63,572 nt of DNA, filler included, from Thraustochytrium aureum (GCA_012862495.1; 4 parts of 4 records of this genome joined end to end with filler, not necessarily neighbours in it), one strand, 5' to 3'. Positions 25,484-36,000 are shown, counted from the first letter of the whole stretch. Notes: generated by a model from the sequence alone, not told the origin. Made by a program: numbers and translations.

Positions 25484-27664
25484 TCAATGCAGCGACGAAA
25501 GCTCTCTATACAGGGCCTTGAGGCGATTGCGGCGCTGCGTGCTCGAGCGAATCGCCTGCGCGTCCTCCGAGGACGAGTAGCCCGACCCGGCGCCTGCATT
25601 GCGGCTAGGGTGCGACCGCCCAGAGTTCCACGGCGGGCGCATCGAGGCCTCGTCGGCCCCACGGCTCTTTTCGCTCTCACGACGAGCGAGGCGGAAACCG
25701 CCACCGCCAACCAGCTCCCCATCGCTCATGCCCTCTTGCATTTGCACAGAGGTCTCCATTGACGCAGGGTCGCGGCCACGCTTGCCCCCGCCGTCCCTCG
25801 AGCCAGCGTCGAGGGAGGTGCGCACGCGTCTCTGCGGGCCGAGCCATTCCTCATCAGTGTCGGCTCCCAACCCATACGGCGGTGGGGTCTTGCTCTGCCT
25901 GCGCGCGACCGAAGACAGCGTGTCTCGCTCGTGAGAGCGCGGCCTCGGCTCCGCAGAGATCGAACGCCGCGCCCGAGCACGGCCACTTCCAAGAGCGCTT
26001 GTGAGCCTCGACGAAGTCGTTGGCGTGGCGGCGCTTTGGCGCTTGGCGCGCCGCTTCTTCTTGACAAGTTTCTTCGCAGACCTCCCTCGAGATGGCGAGG
26101 TGGCTTCCCGCGACTTGAAAGATGCCCCGGCGTCGTCTTTGTTGCGCACATTTGCAGAAGTTCGCACAATCTCGCGCAGCTCTTCATACGCAAGCTTGAA
26201 AGGCGACTGGCCGCGCCTGGACTCGCCCGGCGCGCTCTCGTCGTCTTCGATGGCGGCGGCACTCTCCTCTAGCATTTTGTTGAGGCGCTCTTGATGTTGG
26301 CGCCCGGCCGCGAGTCGCGCCTTGAGCTCGTCTTTGGTCTCGTGGATCACGTCCATGAACGACTCGACCCGCTCCATGCTGTCCGCGACGAGCTCACTTT
26401 GCGAGCGAAGCTTGCGCTCGACGGCGGCCAGGACCTCGTTGAGGTTGTCTGTCTTGTCCCTCACAATCTCCTCGACTACGCTGCGGAGCTGGGCATGGTC
26501 GAACGGAGCGCCCCGAGCTCCGAGCGGGCTAGATGGCCGAGGCGGGCTGGAATGCTGCGCTGCCAACTGGACATCGGCGTGCCGAGACAGCTCTGCTCGC
26601 GTTTCCTCGAGTGCTGCACGGAGCGCACTGTTCTCCTCGCTGACTGCAGCGAGCTTCTCCTCGAGGCCTGCGGTTCGCGCCTTTACGGCTAAAAGGGCTT
26701 GCTCCGTGAGCCGTGACTCTGCGGCCTGTTTGGCTTCCCTCTCCCGCGCAGTTTGGTTGATCTTTTTCTCCATCGCACGAAGCGTGTCCATGACTTGCTT
26801 GAGGTTGAGGTCGCTCAGCTGAGCGAGGTCTTGGCGGGTCTCGCTGATCTCGTCGCGCAGCTGAGCCTCCACAAGCTCCGAGGCAAACGCGACAGCCCTG
26901 CCAGCTTGTGTCCCAGACGCGCGGCGCCCGCCGCCAGCAGTGGCTTGGTCGGCGAGCTGCGCTGCCCCGTGAAACTTGAGCTGCTCCATGGCTGCGCTTA
27001 GGCGGTTTTCGAGCGATGCGATGCGAAAGTCCTGCTGCTCGCGCAGGGCGTTCAGCTGGACCTCCATCTGGCTCTGCAGCGTTGCCACAGCGGTTTTCGT
27101 TTCCTCGCGAGCGAGGTCTCCCAGTCCGCAGATCTTGGCCTCGTTCGAGCGCCCTCGCGCCTCGTCCAGGTCGAGCCGGCTCGCAAACTCCAAGACCTTT
27201 TGCTCCAGGCGGCGGCGGATCCCCTCCACTACGCCGTGCTGTCGCTCTTCGAATTGTGCGAGCTCGCTGTGGACGTTGTCCATCCTGTCGGAGACGCTTG
27301 CCATTTTGGCGTTTAGCGAATCGAACCCGTCGCGGAAAAAGGCTACTTGGTCACGCAACCCAGATATTGCGCCAAGGCATTCCCCGCTCTTCGTCTCGCC
27401 CTGCGCCTCGGCGATCTTGAGGGCCCTGGCAAGATTGTTCATCTTTTCATCCTGGCCCAAGAGCGACCCTTGGACCTGCTCGATCCGCTCACTAAAGCTC
27501 TGCGACGTCAGGCAGGCGGCGGAAACCCTCTCCAGCTGCACCTCCAAAAACGTGATGTACGCCGCCCGATCCGTCAGCAGCCGCTCATCTTCCAGCTTGC
27601 CTTTGCCACCGTTCTTCGCGCGCCGGTACTCCTCGTAGTACGACCCACCATGATTCGTCAACAT
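25484..27664 (-). CDS. Long coiled-coil protein with basic low-complexity C-terminus
   Basis: Uninterrupted ORF with heptad-rich sequence and an N-terminal motif AYITFLEVQLERVSAACL. Confidence 0.75.
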   Translation of the reverse strand: MLTNHGGSYYEEYRRAKNGGKGKLEDERLLTDRAAYITFLEVQLERVSAACLTSQSFSERIEQVQGSLLGQDEKMNNLARALKIAEAQGETKSGECLGAISGLRDQVAFFRDGFDSLNAKMASVSDRMDNVHSELAQFEERQHGVVEGIRRRLEQKVLEFASRLDLDEARGRSNEAKICGLGDLAREETKTAVATLQSQMEVQLNALREQQDFRIASLENRLSAAMEQLKFHGAAQLADQATAGGGRRASGTQAGRAVAFASELVEAQLRDEISETRQDLAQLSDLNLKQVMDTLRAMEKKINQTAREREAKQAAESRLTEQALLAVKARTAGLEEKLAAVSEENSALRAALEETRAELSRHADVQLAAQHSSPPRPSSPLGARGAPFDHAQLRSVVEEIVRDKTDNLNEVLAAVERKLRSQSELVADSMERVESFMDVIHETKDELKARLAAGRQHQERLNKMLEESAAAIEDDESAPGESRRGQSPFKLAYEELREIVRTSANVRNKDDAGASFKSREATSPSRGRSAKKLVKKKRRAKRQSAATPTTSSRLTSALGSGRARARRSISAEPRPRSHERDTLSSVARRQSKTPPPYGLGADTDEEWLGPQRRVRTSLDAGSRDGGGKRGRDPASMETSVQMQEGMSDGELVGGGGFRLARRESEKSRGADEASMRPPWNSGRSHPSRNAGAGSGYSSSEDAQAIRSSTQRRNRLKALYRELSSLH

Positions 27665-28307
27665 CCCGCCGCCAAGCCCGTCCGGGGAGCAGCCCAGCGG
27701 CAGCGGAGGCCTGCAGACCGCTAGAGCCACCTGCGCTGTCCCCTCGCGGCGCCGCGTGCGTCCGCCGCGTCCTCGTGCGCCGCCTCTGGGCACTGCCCGC
27801 GAGAAGGCGAGCGCACAAAAAAAGGCGTTAGGCACCACTGCGTCCGCCCCGTCAAAAAAAACCGCGGCCTCGACGTCCATCGNNNNNNNNNNNNNNNNNN
27901 NNNNNNNNNNNNNNNNNNNNNNNNNNNNNNNNNNNNNNNNNNNNNNNNNNNNNNNNNNNNNNNNNNNNNNNNNNNNNNNNNNNNNNNNNNNNNNNNNNNN
28001 NNNNNNNNNNNNNNNNNNNNNNNNNNNNNNNNNNNNNNNNNNNNNNNNNNNNNNNNNNNNNNNNNNNNNNNNNNNNNNNNNNNNNNNCGTCAGTCAACCA
28101 ATGTCCACACGCGAAGCCGCGCCAGCCAGGCAGACGCTCAATGGCGCGTAGACTGCTCCGGGCGTCGGCGTCCTGGGACCGGCACGGGCTTGCGCGCGCG
28201 CTCGCAGGGACGAACGCTTCCGGGACCCTGCGCGGGGCGTGCTGAGACGTTCGTTGGCTTGCCGCGAGAAGGACTGTCTGCTGCGATTTGAGCTGGCCGC
28301 GGCCGAG

Positions 28308-29370
28308 ATGGACGCGCCCCCGCCCGTGCGCGTCCTGCTGGTCGTGCAGGTCGGCAGGGCGCTGGTGGAGGTGGAGCGCGCCCCGCTTGGCGAGATCGAT
28401 ACGTTTGGCGACGTCAAGCGTGAGATCCTCGAGCGGGCTCGTGCGGTGGCGGCCGCCGAGCAAGGCAAGGGCTTCTCAGACCTGGCCAAGATCAAGCTCC
28501 TTGTGAAAGGCAAGGCGCGCGGAGACGATGAGGTCATAGTCTTGTGCCTCACAGCCGCGGAGCGCAAAAAGGAGCAAGTCACGCTCAAAGGCAGAATCTC
28601 GGCGCCGCCAGAGGCCTCTGCGGCGCTGGAAGCCCTCGAGAAGAGCTGCGTCCGCGAGGCGGCGGAGACGGCCACGGCGGGGGCCCCGGCACCAGCCCCC
28701 AGGACAGTCGATGCGAATGCGACCAGCGCAAGCGAGGGCTGCGCCGGCGAGAAGGGCGCCGCCCAGGACGGCGTCTGCGAGGCCCAGGGCGGCGAGACGG
28801 CTCCTGCAGTTGGTGCAGAGGCGGGCGTCCGAGAACTCGGTGAAGGCGAGTTTGTGATTCATGTGCAGCAAGGGGCCTTTAAGTACATAGTAGTGGCCCC
28901 ATCAGGGGCCTGGACCGTCCACGAGCTCAAGCGGAGCCTGCAGAGCCAGATCGCCGTGCCCGTATCGCAGCAGCGCATACTTGTGAAGGGCAAGGTGCGG
29001 ACAGACGGCGAATCGATGGTAAGAGTGCGGGCTTGCTCCGCAAGGCGGCAAAGCCATGCTACTCTTTTCGGACGGCTACCACCGCGCCGCGGACGGTGGC
29101 GCCTTCTTGGAGGTCGCCGAGCAAGAGGTGAAGGCCTCTCTCGCGTTGGTTGAAAAGTCGGGCGCGCAAATACGCCACCGCCTCGCAGATCCAGGGGAGG
29201 TGTTCCTTGAGGTTGCCGCCTCGCTCGACCGCGTTGAAAACATAGCCAGGCACCTTGAGGACAGACCAGTTCCAGCGAGCGCGGTCCCGCGCAAAGTCCA
29301 GGCGCTGCGCGAGCTGGCAGAGCTCGCGCAAGCCCTGCGCGTGTTGAAGAGCAAGGGCTTGCGCCGGTAA
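28308..29370 (+). CDS. Tandem ubiquitin-like domain protein with C-terminal helical (BAG-like) region; frameshift near 29025
   Basis: TFGDVKREI…IKLLVKGK and WTVHELKRSLQSQIAVPVSQQRILVKGKVRTDGESM. Shifting frame gives ECGLAPQGGKAMLL, completing the Ubl fold. Confidence 0.7.
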
Positions 29371-29452
29371 GCCAGCCAGGCGCTGCGCGCGACCCCAAAG
29401 CAAAACCGGACACATTGCGCTGGAAGCAGCTACATAACCGCTCCTCCCCAAG

Positions 29453-31564
29453 TTAGTCTTCCTTGCACCTCTGCAGCTCGATGTACTTTGAGCACGGCTC
29501 GTCGCCATTGTCTGGCGTCCCGAAGAGCGACTGACGAAGCCAGCGCTTGCGCCTCTTCCAGCTCGAGTCGAACGGCAGGCCGTTGATGGCGATGTGCAGC
29601 AACGGCGGAACAGTGCCTCCGTACACATCCAAGGCAACGATCCTGTCCCGGATCGACTGCGCCGTGTTGGCAAAGGCTTCCAGCTCGTACTTGGCCGCAA
29701 CGACGTCGAGCGAGAGGAGGCAGACCTGGAGAAGGATCTTGGAGATTTCGTGCCTGCTGAGCGGGCGATCCCACTCGTCCTGCGCGCAGTGGAACCCGAG
29801 GACCTGCGAAAGCGCGTAAAGTACAGTGCCGACGCGCAAGGCGGTCAAGCAGCGGAACACCTGCACCTCGTAGACAAATTCGCCGTAGTTCGGGTAGTGC
29901 GCGAAAGCCCAGACAGTACAGCAGAGGTCGCAAAAGTATATTGTCACAAGGGCCCTCGTGTCGAAGGACGGCGAAAACATGTTGAAGACCAGGCTCAGGA
30001 AGACGAAAACGGTGAGGCACACTGAGAGCCCTGTCCCTGACCAGATGCTTCTCAGCGAGGACATGTGAAAGTCGTTCTTGGCTCTCAAGTGGTTCCACTT
30101 GAGGTTGTGTGGCCACCTCACAAAGCTGAGCACCTTGTGCTCCCCTGGGCCGCAGCTCTCCATTGCAGTCCCGAGTGGCTCGTACTTGTGCGCGTGGTAC
30201 ACCTTGCCCACCACGGCGGTTCCGTCACCAGCCCCGCTCGGGACGAGCAAGTCACCCACCGACACCGGGCCCACCACACGGACGGGCACTTGCCCCAGAA
30301 ACCGCACAGCACGCCGGCATCCTCCTTGGCACCAAAGGGCACGCCAGCGGCCACAGAGGGCTTCGTGGGACGACCATGATGGGCCCCGTGCCGGAGGTGT
30401 CGAGCGAGACCTTTTGCTCTGGCGAGCGGAGCTGAACAACGTCGCCGCAATTTATCTTCTCAGCGGGGTCAAGCTTGGCAAACCACTCGGCGTAGTCGGC
30501 GGCCTCGGGCGGCGTCACGAGCTGGCCGTTGATCCCGCCCTCGACTGTGAGGGAGCCCTTGACAGAAAGGCTGCGCACCACCAAATCTCCGCCAAATATA
30601 GCGTCGCCCTCGACGCGAAGCGAGCCGCGGATCACCACTACGCCGGCGCTGGAGTCGTCCTCGTCTTTTGCCGCACGCAGTGTATGAGGCTGTTTCCCCC
30701 CGAGCTCTTGATGGAATCTGCGTCGTCGGTCATGTCGGCGGTGGAGACCGTCGACACCTGCGGCGAGGGTGGAATGTTTCCGCTCGAGTTGGACGAGGTG
30801 GCCGCGGCGCCGCCCGCGGCGATCGCGGCAGCGGCATCGCCGCCCGTGTGCTCGCTGTTTGGGCGCCTTCGCTTGGCGGACCGCGCCGGACTGTCGACTG
30901 GCCAGAACTGCACGAGGCTCGGGGCGTTCAGAACGACGAACGAGCGGCAGTTGGCGCGCGTCAGCGCCTCGTCCGAGCTCGCCCGCTGCAACAGCGTGTA
31001 GCAGCGACCGGAGAACCCGTGGTCCTCGTTGAGCCCTGCCTTGCACGTTCGAGTCTTGCGCGACATGTTGCGCGCCACAATACCGCGCGTGTGGTTGTGC
31101 CGCGCCGACCACCACACCTCGCCGTTGCTGAACGACTGAAACTTTACGCCGATTAGCGAGGAAGGGTCGCCGAGCATGCGCACGCGTTCGTGCTCTGGAA
31201 GCAGGCTGTGCTGGTTGCTCGCGACGTAGAACAGTCTGATCTCGCTGCAGATCGGCGACGCCTGCGGCCGGCAGGCGATTTGAGGCGCGAAGCGGCCCGC
31301 CTCGGCGGCTATCAGGAGGTCGAAAACCTGCTCGAACGTGAGTCGCCGCTCTTGCTCCGCATCGATTGTTTTCACGTTCTCATCCTTGGTGTCTCCGAAC
31401 AGCGCCGGCTCAAAATCTTCTGCTTCCTCGAACCAAATTGCGTCGAGAATGTCAAAGGCGTGCGGGTCGAACACGTTGTGCTCCACCTTGCCGTTCTGCG
31501 GCTCCATCGCGGGCTCCGGCTCGCGGCTCCCCTGCACCAGCGCGGCAGGGGATGCCTCGCTCAT
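29453..31564 (-). CDS. Putative membrane-anchored self-cleaving protein: CG-1-like domain, NLS, beta-helix, Peptidase_G2 (IMC) domain, about 4 TM; three single-base frameshifts
   Basis: Joins ORFs 30638-32014 (from ATG 31564), 30252-31115, 30118-30450 and 29453-30439. The first and last are in the same frame. IMC motifs are ADYAEWF, GDVV, GQVPVRVVGPVSVGDLLVPSGAGDG. C-terminal hydrophobic segments lie at about 29700-30030. Confidence 0.75.
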
Positions 31565-33470
31565 GTCGCCGCGGGCCTCGCTACCTGCCCCCCCCCTGCT
31601 CGACCCGGCGCTTTCCTCGCGCACGGCTCCCTCCGCCTGGGTCTTCGCACGGCAGCGCGGTGTGCTGCGCAAGCGTGTTCGCGGCCGTCCGGCGACTCGA
31701 CAGAATGGGGTCGGCGCAGCTCTCGAGGATGCGGGCGCGCAAGTCCCAGCGGCGTCTGCCAGCGCAGCCCGCGTCCGGGTCCTTTCTCCGCTGCTTCCGA
31801 CGCTCTCAGGCTGCCGCGCACGGGGCTCGCGCAGAGTGTCTACTGAAGTGCGAGCAAGTGTACGAGCCGAAGTAGCTCCAGAGCGGGGAGGAGAGGAGAG
31901 TCCTCTACTGCCACGGCGCCCTCGGGCCGGGAACAGCGCCCTCCGTGGCCTGCGTTGCACGAGCAGCGCGGTGCACGAGCGCCCTGAGGCCGTTGCACGA
32001 GCAGGACGTCGCACGAGCAGGTGTATGCTCTACGAGGACACCGTCTCCGCCACCTGCAGCGCCTCGCAGGCGTTGGAGGCCGCCGTGCAAGCCGGCAAGC
32101 CTCGCGCCAACGCGGCGCAAGCAAGCAAGAGCAGGCAGGACAGCAGCACAGCTCGCGCGGGACAGGCTGCTCGGTGGGAGTACGCAGAGTACTAGTACTC
32201 GCGTCTCGGGAGCAAATTGGACGGCCTGCTGACGGCTGGCAGCAGGCAAGAGGGCGGGAGGGAGCGAGCGTCAACGAGGATGGCAAGAGCTGCTCGTTCT
32301 GTCCGCCAGGTGCCCTGCGTGCAGTACAGCGCGGCGCGAGCACGATAACGCCGCCTGCTGCACCCGGGCCAGCAAGACAGGCGCGTGACACAGCGATGAC
32401 ACATTCGCCTGCTGGTACTCGCGTGGTACACCAGGTGTTTTTCGTTTGCTGTCGATCCATCGAAACAACTCGACAAGAATGGGATTTCAAGGAAAGCGCA
32501 AAACAAACAACATCGCGGAGCAGCAGAGTGTGCGGTAGTTCCGACGAACCGTGCACCTGCGTTTCCGTTCGGCGCTCGGCGTTCGGCGGATTTGGGACTC
32601 GGAGGATTTGCACCTCTGGAGAGGTGTCCGTTGCTCGCGGTGCGTGCGTGCGTGGCGGTTTGAAGGCCCGCTCCGACCTCGTTCGAGCCGGCTGACGGCC
32701 ATTGGGGTGCTTGCGCACTGTGGAGGCCGCCCTGGCGGCGGCGGACTGCCGTTTGCTTTTTATGGGCGCTGGAAAGCGCGCGACCAGGTGGGAAAGAAAT
32801 GTGGCCTTCATTTAGTTCAGCCACCTTGGGCGATGATGTGGTCCGGCCGCCGGAGTTTGCACTGGAGGCGCGTGGCCGGGCGACAAGGAGAGCGGGGGCG
32901 TGCCTTTGGCTGGTTGCTCCAGGTCTTGGAATCTTCCGACGACCTCTGAGAGGCCCAGAGGTCGAAACGCTCGAACTTGCAAGTGCACCGTGTTCAGTGC
33001 CACAATGGGACGCGCGGGATGCAAGGTGCAAATAATCTGCTGGTGCTGCACCTGCGGCGACGCTTGAGGTACAACCGTTTGCTTGGGCGTTGCTCTTCCT
33101 CGCTGATCACTCCGACCTGGGCCGTACACCATGCCGCACTTCAGAGCCGAAAAACGCGTCCTACCACAGTTGCCCAGTGCTGACTTTGCTCTACTTGCAA
33201 CCTTCGAGGGGCATGCTATGGGGACGCGCGAGCGAGGATTTGCAGCACTGGCCAGAAAGGCATCCTGCGCCAGCGACTAGGAACAAGGTGGGCGCACTGC
33301 ACATGCGTGGTGGGAAGCACGGGCGCAAGCGCCTGGACGGCCCCGACAAAGCCAAAACCGCACCGCAAGCAAAACCGCAACAAGCCCTGCAACCGACCAT
33401 CGCCATAGCCCACTAAGCAGCACCAAGCAACAGCAAACGTGGCGACGACGCGAGCAGCTCCCAAGTCAAG

Positions 33471-33918
33471 ATGCGCCTTTCTCTCGCCAACGCGGCGACT
33501 GCCGCCCTGGCACTCGTCCACGCGACAAACGCAATCTCTGTCGCCGAAGAGCAAAAGGCCGTCCAAGCCGTCACTGCGCTCCTCGAAAGCGACCTCAAAA
33601 ACGTGCCTCTCGCCGTGCGGCTCGTTTTTCACGACTGCTTTGAATCCGGATGCGACGGCTGCATCGACACCTCTTCGCGAGCGCACGTCGGCCTTGAGCC
33701 AATCGTCCGAAACCTGGACGCCATCCATGCCAGCCAAGCCCTGACAATGTCAAAGGCCGACTTGTATGCCATGGCAGGGACGCTGGCCCTGCGTATCGGG
33801 TCTTTAACCCCCGCCCGCCCAGTCGCCGGCCGCGCCGCAGGAGCCGTGGCCTCTTGGAGCAAGACGAAGCCCTCGTGGAGGAAGCCCTCGTGGAGGAAGC
33901 CGGCCAACCCAACGGCCA
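33471..33918 (+). CDS. Secreted non-animal haem peroxidase, N-terminal part (rest in gap)
   Basis: Signal peptide, distal motif VRLVFHDC, GCDGCID and MSKADLYAMAG. Confidence 0.85.
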
Positions 33919-34509
33919 NNNNNNNNNNNNNNNNNNNNNNNNNNNNNNNNNNNNNNNNNNNNNNNNNNNNNNNNNNNNNNNNNNNNNNNNNNNNNNNNNN
34001 NNNNNNNNNNNNNNNNNNNNNNNNNNNNNNNNNNNNNNNNNNNNNNNNNNNNNNNNNNNNNNNNNNNNNNNNNNNNNNNNNNNNNNNNNNNNNNNNNNNN
34101 NNNNNNNNNNNNNNNNNNNNNNNNNNNNNNNNNNNNNNNNNNNNNNNNNNNNNNNNNNNNNNNNNNNNNNNNNNNNNNNNNNNNNNNNNNNNNNNNNNNN
34201 NNNNNNNNNNNNNNNNNNNNNNNNNNNNNNNNNNNNNNNNNNNNNNNNNNNNNNNNNNNNNNNNNNNNNNNNNNNNNNNNNNNNNNNNNNNNNNNNNNNN
34301 NNNNNNNNNNNNNNNNNNNNNNNNNNNNNNNNNNNNNNNNNNNNNNNNNNNNNNNNNNNNNNNNNNNNNNNNNNGCTGGTGCTCGATAGCTCCGCCGCGT
34401 CCCGAGTCGTGTCGGCCTGTGCGTCACTCCGTCAGTGCCCGAAGCCGAGCCGACGAACGAGTTGCCGCACGCAGCGCGGTCGCGGCGGGGCAGCAGAGAG
34501 CCCGGCCCC

Positions 34510-36000
34510 ATGGCGAGCGAGTACGAGCAGCTCCGGCTGGAGCGCATCAAGGCGAACGAGGCGTTCCTAGCAGAGCTCGACGTCGCCCAGGACAAGGGCA
34601 CCCTTGAACGAAACAAGCGCAAGGCGAAACCTGCCGCGACAAGGACGAAGCGCACGAAGAGCGCGGCGCAGCAGGCAGTCGAGCCGGCCAGGCGCAGCTC
34701 GCGGCTGAGCGGCAAAGAAGCTGAAAGCCTCTACATTCTCTCCGCGTCCAGGGGCAAGGTCTTGGTCGGCGGCCAGCCGCCGACCATGCGCCCCGAGCTC
34801 GACTCGTCAGGCGCCCCGGTGGCAATGTACGACCTCAAGGGCGGAGGGTTCGCCCCGGCGCGCCAAAAAACTCGCTTTGAGGATCAAGTCCTCGACCTTG
34901 GCTTGCGCGCGGACCAGATGGACAAGTCTGGCAGCGATTTTTTTGCCTCGCTCAAGACCGCCGCCGCCGACGGCGGGGGGGTCGCGACGCACAGCAAAGG
35001 GGCCCTGGCGTACAGCGAGCGACTCAGCAAGCTCGAGTGCACAGCTGCGGTCAAGATCACTCCGGCGCGTGCTTATGCGGTGGCGTTTCACCCTCAGGTC
35101 CCCGTCGTCTGCGCTGGAGACCGGGATGGCAACATCGGTCTCTTGCGGTACTCAGAAAGCGATCTGGAGGCCGAGAGCGCCTCTCTGGAGTACAAGCCGC
35201 ACGTCAGCACCGTAAATGCGCTCGCCTGCGCCGAGACAATGTTGTACTCATTCAGCTACGACGGGACGGTGCGCGCTATGGACCTTGGAAAGCCGGGAAC
35301 CTTTCAACTTGCCTTCAAGTCGACCGCGAATGGAGCCAAGGACGTTTGGCTGCAGCATGGCGTTCTCTCCGCGAGCGGGAAGACCATGTATGTCGCCATG
35401 TCGGACGGCCACGTGGTGCACGCCTCGGTGAACGCCGGAAAGCCCATTTGGTCGTTTGCCGCGCACGACAAGAAGGTGCAGACGGTGTCGGCGAGTCCTG
35501 ACGAGCGGCTCCTCGCGACCGCGAGCCTAGACCGATCTATCAAGGTCTGGGACTTGCGCAAGTGCGGTGGCGCAAAGCCCAAGCCGCTCTGCACCTTCCA
35601 GGACTCCCACAGTATCAATAGCTGCACCTTCAACCCCACTGGCAGCAAGCTCGTGGCCGTCGCAATGTCCAACAAACTGCATCTTTTCGCGCACCCCGAC
35701 AAGACCACTGGCGACTCGCTCAACCCGACGCGTTCAGTGCGCCACGACAACCGCACAGGAAGGTACCTGGCCGTATTCCACGCGGCTTGGGACCCAAAAG
35801 AGCCGGACGCCTTTATTGTGGGCTCAATGGCCCAGCCGCGGCGCGTTGAGGTTTACTCTGCCGACAACGACGAGCTCAACCTCGTCATGAACCTTTCAGG
35901 GGACCTCTTGGGCTCCGTCCAGAGTCGCAGTGCTTTCCACCCGACGCTGGACCTTATCGCGTGCGGAAACGCTAGCGGCCGCCTCCACCTCTTCCAATGA
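34510..36000 (+). CDS. WDR76: WD40 protein WDR76/Cmr1
   Basis: N-terminal SEYEQLRLERIKANEAFLAEL and RRSSRL, followed by AVAFHP…AGDRDGNIGL, SYDGTVR, TASLDRSIKVWDLR, HDNRTGRYL and GNASGR. Confidence 0.85.
   Translation: MASEYEQLRLERIKANEAFLAELDVAQDKGTLERNKRKAKPAATRTKRTKSAAQQAVEPARRSSRLSGKEAESLYILSASRGKVLVGGQPPTMRPELDSSGAPVAMYDLKGGGFAPARQKTRFEDQVLDLGLRADQMDKSGSDFFASLKTAAADGGGVATHSKGALAYSERLSKLECTAAVKITPARAYAVAFHPQVPVVCAGDRDGNIGLLRYSESDLEAESASLEYKPHVSTVNALACAETMLYSFSYDGTVRAMDLGKPGTFQLAFKSTANGAKDVWLQHGVLSASGKTMYVAMSDGHVVHASVNAGKPIWSFAAHDKKVQTVSASPDERLLATASLDRSIKVWDLRKCGGAKPKPLCTFQDSHSINSCTFNPTGSKLVAVAMSNKLHLFAHPDKTTGDSLNPTRSVRHDNRTGRYLAVFHAAWDPKEPDAFIVGSMAQPRRVEVYSADNDELNLVMNLSGDLLGSVQSRSAFHPTLDLIACGNASGRLHLFQ

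What the first reader, a model, noticed from the sequence alone, without database searches (positions are those of the whole stretch)
29453..31564. MYRF-like logic with different parts: putative membrane-tethered transcription factor released by a phage-type Peptidase_G2 autocleavage chaperone
SEEN: three single-base corrections (near 30700, 30370 and 30298; the first and last ORFs share a frame) give one protein of about 700 aa. In order it has an acidic N-terminus, a globular domain (31360-30900), AKRRRP, an S/A-rich linker and beta-strand repeats VIRGSLRVEGD…LSVKGSLTVEGG. These are followed by ADYAEWF (30500-30480), GDVV, KPSVAAG, GQVPVRVVGPVSVGDLLVPSG.GDG and about four hydrophobic segments (30030-29700). 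KNOWN: DYAE…GQVPVR is the signature of Peptidase_G2/IMC (PF11962; phi29 gp12 tail appendage), which chaperones trimerisation of an upstream beta-helix and then cuts itself off. Animal MYRF and Dictyostelium MrfA use a different phage chaperone (S74/ICA) to release an NDT80 DNA-binding trimer from a membrane anchor. INFERENCE: this protein has the same order (DNA-binding domain, NLS, beta-helix, autocleavage, TM) but uses G2 rather than S74 and a non-NDT80 head. That would be an independent origin of a self-releasing membrane transcription factor in a protist. I know of no description of it, but could not search.
Basis: partly seen in the sequence, partly recalled or inferred. Interest (0 to 1): 0.88.

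Follow-up and report, generated by a model that had tools for sequence, protein, structure and literature searches.

The report
Self-cleaving membrane-tethered NAC-like transcription factor
A marine protist gene joins a plant-NAC-like fold that likely binds DNA to a phage-tail-type domain predicted to cut itself and to a likely membrane anchor, so it probably frees its own gene-regulator half as the animal factor MYRF does, but from unrelated parts.

Summary
The three frame breaks are assembly errors: one contig of another run bridges all three and carries the missing bases. They lie at 30298, 30368 and 30665, not 30700. The gene reads as 704 aa. Intact relatives, some from complete transcripts, occur in labyrinthulomycetes and pelagophytes.

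The head models well (pLDDT 92) and best matches NAC DNA-binding domains (Z 8.1), then Ssr4 and WOPR. The middle domain of a close relative matches phi29 gp12's cleaved-off chaperone (Z 12.4), its Asp on gp12 Asp692, the first residue after the cut. All 51 head-plus-chaperone proteins keep the Asp and Glu. No S74 or NDT80 match was found, so it is not a MYRF member.

Cleavage, trimer, DNA binding and topology are inferred, not tested. The nearest chaperone relatives found are secreted bacterial proteins rather than phage proteins. Ten paper searches found no description. This scan had already noted the same idea in other genomes.

The parts
29453..31564 (-). Whole gene, no intron seen, 704 aa (about 76 kDa) once three one-base assembly deletions are allowed for
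   Evidence: co-linear intact homologs of 647-793 aa
31346..31564 (-). Acidic, poorly conserved N-terminus (aa 1-73); possible activation region (inferred); no signal peptide by a hydropathy proxy
   Evidence: net acidic in 45 of 46 family members with over 30 residues before the head; signal-peptide proxy positive in 1 of 50
30899..31345 (-). Head domain (aa 74-222): NAC/WOPR/Ssr4-like fold of the WRKY-GCM1 clan, net basic; likely DNA-binding
   Evidence: AF2 pLDDT 91.7; Z 8.1, rmsd 3.3 over 107 residues to ANAC019; Ssr4 Z 4.8, WOPR 3.5 and 3.2; net positive in 51 of 51
30860..30877 (-). Basic patch AKRRRP (aa 230-235), candidate nuclear localisation signal
   Evidence: basic cluster in the linker in 22 of 51 members against 5.3 from shuffles; somewhere upstream of the chaperone in 46 of 51
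30639..30859 (-). Ser/Ala/Gly-rich unconserved linker (aa 236-309); holds the 30665 break
30513..30638 (-). Short beta-strand repeats (aa 310-351), likely a triple beta-helix stalk
   Evidence: conserved across the family; the triple-helix state is inferred from position and pattern, no trimer model could be run
30486..30497 (-). DYAE (aa 357-360); predicted cut between Ala356 and Asp357; Glu360 corresponds to gp12 Glu695
   Evidence: model Asp aligns to gp12 residue 692; gp12 691-695 reads S-D-F-A-E; mature gp12* ends at 691 (PMC6542822); Asp and Glu kept in 51 of 51
30113..30497 (-). Peptidase_G2-type intramolecular chaperone, tandem beta-tulip (aa 357-485); holds the 30368 and 30298 breaks
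   Evidence: homolog P0028 model vs 3gqh: Z 12.4, rmsd 2.4, 113 aligned, 26% identity; PF11962 in 21 of 38 members at E<=0.1, above the curated cut-off in P0017, P0019, P0043
29693..30043 (-). Four hydrophobic helices (aa 509-531, 539-556, 568-590, 608-625), likely membrane anchor
   Evidence: hydropathy; four-helix bundle in the P0028 model; generic matches to 4-TM proteins and to soluble bundles
29534..29557 (-). Basic C-terminal patch (aa 671-678), fits a cytosolic tail
   Evidence: sequence; net positive family average at this place; topology inferred

Best explanation
This is one conserved stramenopile gene whose product is likely a membrane-tethered transcription factor that is predicted to cut itself free. 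Shown: one 704-aa frame with the order acidic region, NAC-like head, basic patch, linker, beta repeats, G2-type chaperone and four hydrophobic helices, conserved in labyrinthulomycetes and pelagophytes. Inferred mechanism: the protein inserts in a membrane (probably the ER) with both ends in the cytosol. Three chaperone domains associate and wind the repeats into a short triple beta-helix. The Glu of DYAE then drives cleavage between Ala356 and Asp357, as in phi29 gp12. A trimer of about 38-kDa N-fragments carrying three basic heads is released, enters the nucleus and binds DNA, while the chaperone stays on the anchor. The anchor may gate the timing, since relatives swap it for other membrane or sensor modules.
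For: Single gene: and 'complete' transcript ORFs for relatives P0002, P0004, P0020, P0032. Chaperone: the top hit among 48,161 chains is the gp12 C-terminal fragment, Z 12.4, starting at its first residue 692; Foldseek ranks it 2nd and 3rd; phage pre-neck appendage models match at E 6e-10; Asp and Glu are kept in 51 of 51. Trimer-chaperone role and removal of the gp12 domain: bioRxiv 10.1101/216911 and PMC3357383 (passages). Head: NAC structures fill ranks 1-7; NAC, Ssr4 and two WOPR chains are ranks 1-4 of the wide search, the subgroup defined in PMC9252788. The head is net basic in 51 of 51 and basic clusters are enriched in the linker. Cytosolic N-terminus: signal-peptide proxy 1 of 50 against 71 of 81 bacterial relatives. 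The same head also occurs in non-membrane proteins with a long low-complexity linker and a shared C-terminal domain (19 of 27 tested).
Against: The head match is modest: Z 7.6-8.1, 9-12% identity, Foldseek E only 0.047, no Pfam match to NAM or CG-1. PMC9252788 says DNA binding is not supported for two members of this fold group (Ssr4, At3g16750). Most members score below the PF11962 cut-off (14-23 bits for P0001-P0004), and the match covers only profile positions about 17-99 of 228. Non-cleaving capsid cement proteins share the beta-tulip fold (Foldseek rank 1; Z 9.5-10.1). About 45 residues of gp12 (about 743-790) are missing. The residue before the Asp is Ala in 49 of 51 members, not Ser as in gp12. 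Helices 2-4 are only moderately hydrophobic in labyrinthulids (family mean 1.0-1.4), and 12 of 51 members show no segment of 1.6 or more after the chaperone, several of them probably truncated (counted).
Confidence: 0.6

Rival explanations
1. The G2-like domain only trimerises the protein, or cuts without letting go, so the head stays tethered, for example as an inner-nuclear-membrane chromatin anchor, or needs a separate protease.
For: The fold is shared with non-cleaving capsid cement trimers. The gp12 insertion is absent. gp12 needs ATP to release its chaperone (recalled; the paper is not held).
Against: The Asp and Glu at the gp12 cut site are kept in 51 of 51 proteins across two distant lineages. 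The structural alignment starts exactly at the cut. gp12 is the best structural match in the full-alignment search.
Confidence: 0.15
2. It cleaves itself, but the released head is not a sequence-specific DNA binder. It acts as a chromatin adaptor like Ssr4, or binds protein or RNA.
For: Ssr4 is the second-best fold match (Z 4.8-4.9). PMC9252788 reports functional shifts in this fold group. There is no sequence-level match to a DNA-binding family.
Against: NAC scores about 3 Z units above Ssr4. The head is net basic in 51 of 51, with invariant Arg, His and Trp, and it is flanked by an acidic region and basic clusters.
Confidence: 0.15
3. The C-terminal bundle is soluble, or the topology is reversed so that the released part is lumenal or secreted, like the bacterial fibre relatives.
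For: Helices 2-4 are weakly hydrophobic in labyrinthulids. Soluble and designed four-helix bundles match as well as 4-TM proteins.
Against: Helix 1 peaks at 2.18. 39 of 51 members have a segment of 1.6 or more after the chaperone, and many pelagophyte-like members have 3-5. There is no signal peptide by proxy, and both flanks are basic.
Confidence: 0.07
4. Pseudogene, or two or three separate genes.
For: The window itself has three frame breaks. The break at 30665 is repaired by one run only. Metagenome locus L009 also has a break.
Against: One contig bridges all three breaks with the missing bases, synonymous changes are in excess, many intact co-linear homologs exist, and the L009 break sits in a C run.
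Confidence: 0.02

Closest known systems
MYRF / MYRFL (animals) and amoebozoan relatives such as Dictyostelium MrfA (name recalled)
   Same: Same order and logic: DNA-binding domain, beta-helix stalk, trimerising self-cleaving chaperone, membrane anchor (PMC3742443 and PMC8326128, passages).
   Different: NDT80 head against a NAC-like head. S74/ICA chaperone with a Ser-Lys dyad against a tandem beta-tulip G2 domain with Asp/Glu. A four-helix anchor here; MYRF has one helix and a lumenal domain (recalled). No S74 or NDT80 match in 38 members.
phi29 gp12 pre-neck appendage C-terminal autochaperone (Peptidase_G2, PF11962; PDB 3gqh, 3suc)
   Same: Fold (Z 12.4), D-[YF]-A-E at the start of the released domain, the later LGQ strand, and the position after a beta-helix.
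   Different: The chaperone is not C-terminal but carries membrane helices. It lacks about 45 residues of gp12, has Ala instead of Ser before the Asp, and serves a eukaryotic regulator rather than a virion spike.
Secreted bacterial G2-bearing fibre-like proteins (named records: Flavivirga, Psychroserpens, Saprospiraceae, Planctomycetota)
   Same: Closest sequence relatives found for the chaperone (30-45% identity), similarly compact, with the same DYAEW motif.
   Different: They have N-terminal signal peptides (71 of 81 by proxy) and no NAC-like head.
NAC/NAM, WOPR (Gti1/Pac2), CG-1 and Ssr4 domains (WRKY-GCM1 clan), including plant membrane-tethered NAC factors (recalled)
   Same: Head fold (PMC9252788). 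Membrane-tethered NACs also put this fold on a C-terminal anchor (recalled).
   Different: Only 9-13% identity and no Pfam match. Plant membrane NACs are freed by separate proteases (recalled) and have no chaperone domain.

Membership tests
MYRF/MrfA family | NDT80/PhoG DNA-binding domain | tested here: not met
   no such Pfam hit in 38 members at E<=0.1; a confident head model matches a different fold, NAC
MYRF/MrfA family | S74/ICA chaperone with Ser-Lys dyad | tested here: not met
   no PF13884 hit; the domain matches gp12 G2 instead; invariant residues are D-Y-A-E
MYRF/MrfA family | Order: DNA-binding domain, stalk, chaperone, membrane anchor | tested here: met
   head before chaperone in 51 of 51; hydrophobic segment after it in 39 of 51
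MYRF/MrfA family | Autocleavage and nuclear entry of a trimeric N-fragment | not testable with these tools
   needs expression and mutants
Peptidase_G2 / gp12-type IMC (PF11962) | Profile score above the curated cut-off (25 bits) | tested here: inconclusive
   29.5, 29.4 and 26.1 bits for P0017, P0019, P0043; 14-23 bits for P0001-P0004; 21 of 38 at E<=0.1; window fragments none
Peptidase_G2 / gp12-type IMC (PF11962) | Tandem beta-tulip fold of gp12 D4 | tested here: met
   Z 12.4, rmsd 2.4, 113 residues to 3gqh, on homolog P0028
Peptidase_G2 / gp12-type IMC (PF11962) | D-[YF]-A-E at the cut site, Asp first after the cut | tested here: met
   the catalytic role of the Glu is recalled, not read here
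Peptidase_G2 / gp12-type IMC (PF11962) | Homotrimer with an upstream triple beta-helix | not tested
NAC/WOPR/CG-1/Ssr4 subgroup of the WRKY-GCM1 clan | Helix followed by a five-stranded open sheet | tested here: met
   ranks 1-4 of the wide search are NAC, Ssr4, WOPR, WOPR; Z 7.2-8.1 to seven NAC entries, next unrelated row 3.3; Z is near the tool's stated noise ceiling of 8
NAC (NAM, PF02365) or CG-1 (PF03859) family proper | Sequence-profile match | tested here: not met
   no hit at E<=10 for five head sequences, none at E<=0.01 for 55 further proteins
NAC/WOPR/CG-1/Ssr4 subgroup of the WRKY-GCM1 clan | Sequence-specific DNA binding | not testable with these tools
   only indirect: net positive charge in 51 of 51

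The most novel reading that the evidence does not exclude
Stramenopiles independently invented the MYRF device. A lineage-specific NAC-like DNA-binding domain was fused once to a G2 autochaperone of bacterial-fibre or phage origin and to exchangeable membrane anchors. This gives a second, fully non-homologous class of protease-independent self-releasing trimeric transcription factors, old enough to be shared by labyrinthulomycetes and pelagophytes. Its anchors (four-helix bundle, single helix, Cys-rich ectodomain, PLAC8-like) gate cleavage in response to different signals.
Probability: 0.5. Interest if true: 0.86.

Novelty: new variant of a known kind. Interest (0 to 1): 0.74.

Why it matters
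MYRF is the only described family of transcription factors that release themselves from a membrane by a phage-like chaperone, as far as my searches and recall reach. A second family built from unrelated head, chaperone and anchor would show this design evolved twice. It would give a eukaryotic job to the Peptidase_G2 domain, for which I found no eukaryotic report. It would also add an unannotated transcription-factor family to thraustochytrids and bloom-forming pelagophytes. The claim can be tested with one tagged construct and one point mutant.

Tried and rejected
No whole genome is held. No RNA holder is listed for this stretch; X2-X4 are only guessed to be RNA, so they are not used as evidence of expression. 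A second laying of reads on four further runs gave no answer, so the 30665 base rests on one run plus homology.

My first idea that the head is CG-1 proper got no profile support, and no CG-1 structure appeared in the solved-structure hits, so CG-1 against NAC is unresolved. Atlas search of the head: no usable feature hit, TM 0.32-0.41 to Cache domains from a poor model, rejected. Sequence searches of solved structures gave nothing significant for the full protein, only a tailspike at E 1.5 for the C-part, and chance CD276 and LGFP hits for the head. About 20 long repeat proteins among the 127 head hits matched only short stretches and fell out under my own head profile.

No head relative in prokaryote genomes (0 of 52 pattern matches confirmed). 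In viral contigs, 6 of 32 were weak 25-residue matches, taken as chance. Full-family query in viral contigs: 2 of 17 weak matches. tblastn of P0028 in phages: none. NCBIfam: nothing for the family. Profile comparison with a single gp12 sequence was weak (probability 5.5%, E 0.007). The PAS reading of the soluble relatives' C-domain is below the atlas bar and has no Pfam hit.

Paper searches: (Peptidase_G2 + eukaryot) 0; (MYRF papers only among the 20 of 41 listed); 1 irrelevant; 0; (PF11962) 0; phage papers; 0; 2; 1 (a MYRF paper); (MYRF + stramenopile) 0. The library lacks most subscription papers, including the gp12 structure paper. No supplements were read.

Full report
1. Observation. I laid contigs of four public runs on 28800-32300. 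All four show one extra base behind 30298 and behind 30368. One run (X1) shows an extra base behind 30665; the other three have no contig across that place. One X1 contig of 1194 bases spans all three places. With X at the breaks the gene is 704 codons from 31564 to 29453. Of 21 single-base differences inside it, 14 are synonymous against 24% expected (p=4e-5). The window has a similar slip in the next gene (29020, 4 of 4 runs), so the breaks are assembly errors. X1 may be the window's own sample, and X2-X4 come from one study. The neighbours are eukaryotic (WD40, peroxidase, ubiquitin-like).

2. Family. The N-part found four full-length relatives. Their profile found 44 proteins, 41 family-like and 3 bacterial. 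A head-only profile against 1.84 billion representatives found 127. Named sources are Mucochytrium quahogii (a thraustochytrid), Hondaea fermentalgiana, Aplanochytrium, Aureococcus anophagefferens and Aureoumbra lagunensis; the last two are pelagophytes (recalled). Several records are 'complete' transcript ORFs holding both halves. With profiles built from the family, 124 of 236 representative proteins (cluster members left out) carry the head and 51 carry head plus chaperone, the window's read-through included, always in that order. The window's protein groups with the Mucochytrium-type sequences in both trees, so the host is probably a thraustochytrid (inference).

3. Chaperone domain. PF11962 hits 21 of 38 members at E<=0.1, and neither S74 nor NDT80 hits any. 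Three members pass the curated cut-off; the four nearest do not. I folded P0028, an intact relative covering repeats, chaperone and anchor (pLDDT 80). Among 48,161 solved chains its best match is the phi29 gp12 C-terminal fragment (Z 12.4, rmsd 2.4, 113 residues, 26%), model residue 40, the Asp of DYAE, aligning to gp12 692. Foldseek ranks a capsid cement protein first and gp12 second and third. Phage pre-neck appendage models match at E 6e-10. gp12 reads S-D-F-A-E at 691-695 and mature gp12* ends at 691 (PMC6542822, passages), so the equivalent cut is Ala356/Asp357. The Asp and Glu are kept in 51 of 51 (48 DYAE, 2 DFAE, 1 DYSE); the profile that picked these proteins includes the motif, so this is partly selected. 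gp12's domain is a tandem beta-tulip autochaperone needed for trimer assembly (bioRxiv 10.1101/216911, passages) and is cleaved off after folding (PMC3357383, passages). The catalytic role of Glu695 and ATP-dependent release are recalled; that paper is not held. Differences: about 45 residues of gp12 are missing, and Ala replaces Ser before the Asp.

4. Head. The window's own head folds with pLDDT 91.7. Foldseek gives NAC domains at the top but only at E 0.047. The wide alignment search ranks NAC (Z 7.6), Ssr4 (4.8) and two WOPR chains (3.5, 3.2) first to fourth. A second look gives seven NAC entries at Z 7.2-8.1 and the first unrelated row at 3.3. PMC9252788 (passages) groups exactly NAM, WOPR, Ssr4 and CG-1 in one subgroup of the WRKY-GCM1 clan, and warns that DNA binding is not supported for Ssr4 and At3g16750. 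There is no Pfam match. The head is net basic in 51 of 51 (median +8, window +6). The N-terminus is net acidic in 45 of 46. A basic cluster lies in the linker in 22 of 51 (5.3 expected from shuffles) and upstream of the chaperone in 46 of 51. Of 73 head proteins without chaperone, 28 have 250 or more residues after the head; the rest may be fragments. Of 27 of those 28 tested (P0092 left out), 19 share another C-terminal domain that looks PAS-like only below the atlas bar. In the head tree (65 rows, quick method) these soluble forms are one branch, support 88 and unstarred, on the labyrinthulid side; the tree is unrooted.

5. Anchor. Four hydrophobic peaks occur in the window (2.18, 1.51, 1.35, 1.62) and in the labyrinthulid average (1.0-1.4). 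The model shows a four-helix bundle that matches 4-TM proteins and soluble bundles alike. 39 of 51 members have a segment of 1.6 or more after the chaperone; 12 do not, several ending soon after it (counted). A signal-peptide proxy is positive in 1 of 50 family members and 71 of 81 bacterial relatives, which fits a cytosolic N-terminus. Relatives carry other anchors: a single helix (P0127), a Cys-rich repeat region (P0147), a PLAC8-like end (P0124).

6. Origin. The chaperone region found 163 proteins, 120 listed. After the family, the hits are bacterial proteins with signal peptides (named ones mostly Bacteroidota) at 30-45% identity. That search covered only 369-1176 aa proteins. In a tree of 120 of 171 rows (90% dereplicated, quick method) the 48 eukaryotic domains are one side of a branch against 72 bacterial ones (SH-aLRT 99). 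No phage rows were included and there is no root, so a single acquisition fits but the donor is not shown. Phage and viral-contig searches gave nothing or weak matches.

7. Mechanism. Shown: one gene, domain order, folds, conserved cut-site residues. Inferred: membrane insertion with a cytosolic head, trimerisation, Glu-dependent self-cleavage, release of a roughly 38-kDa head trimer, nuclear entry and DNA binding. I put the whole chain at 0.6. The main rivals are no release (0.15) and a head that does not read DNA (0.15).

8. Comparison. It works like MYRF but is not a member: MYRF uses an Ndt80 domain and a Ser-Lys ICA domain (PMC3742443 and PMC8326128, passages). The 'GP12' that PMC8326128 lists as an ICA homolog is that of phage GA-1, not phi29. 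Ten paper searches found no description of this architecture; subscription papers are mostly not covered and no supplements were read.

9. Earlier findings. This scan's notes hold four similar readings in other genomes, none on this place or on look-alike sequence. They are unchecked AI notes. One named a NAC-like head shortly before my own fold search returned (the model was already made and the search submitted in the same turn), so my result agrees with it rather than depending on it.

10. Verdict. A real, conserved, apparently undescribed architecture; a new variant of the self-cleaving membrane-bound transcription factor kind, built from non-homologous parts. Interest 0.74.

Noticed in passing
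window 29020-29021: All four laid runs lack one base here, inside the ubiquitin-like ORF 28152-29153 (+): another likely assembly slip. X2 also shows 5 extra bases behind 31841 and X1 lacks 6 at 32188.
   Followed up: no
window 34390-36000 (+), 33417-33900 (+), 25484-27880 (-): Neighbouring ORFs: a WD40 propeller protein, a peroxidase cut by an N gap, and a long coiled-coil-like protein without a good family. No link to the finding seen.
   Followed up: partly
P0080, P0083, P0087 (Hondaea), P0099, P0110 and others: A non-membrane sister family joins the same NAC-like head through a long low-complexity linker to a shared, possibly PAS-like C-terminal domain: a candidate unannotated one-component sensor transcription factor family.
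   Followed up: partly
P0147, P0124, P0127: Same head and chaperone with different C-terminal modules: Cys-rich repeats, PLAC8-like, single helix.
   Followed up: partly
P0014 (Hondaea), P0190 (Aureococcus): P0014 is named 'F-box/WD repeat-containing protein 7' and P0190 carries a sugar-transferase-like tail; both look like gene-model fusions or misnaming of family members.
   Followed up: no
L009 4503-6244: A full-length relative on a eukaryote-like metagenome contig is split in two frames at a C run just before DYAE, probably another assembly slip.
   Followed up: partly
P0216-P0299: A large set of bacterial proteins with signal peptides, beta repeats and a compact G2 domain, most named only 'hypothetical'; two UniRef names call them S74.
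   Followed up: partly
P0169: Head domain with a weak PHD-finger hit (E 0.008), a hint of a chromatin role.
   Followed up: no
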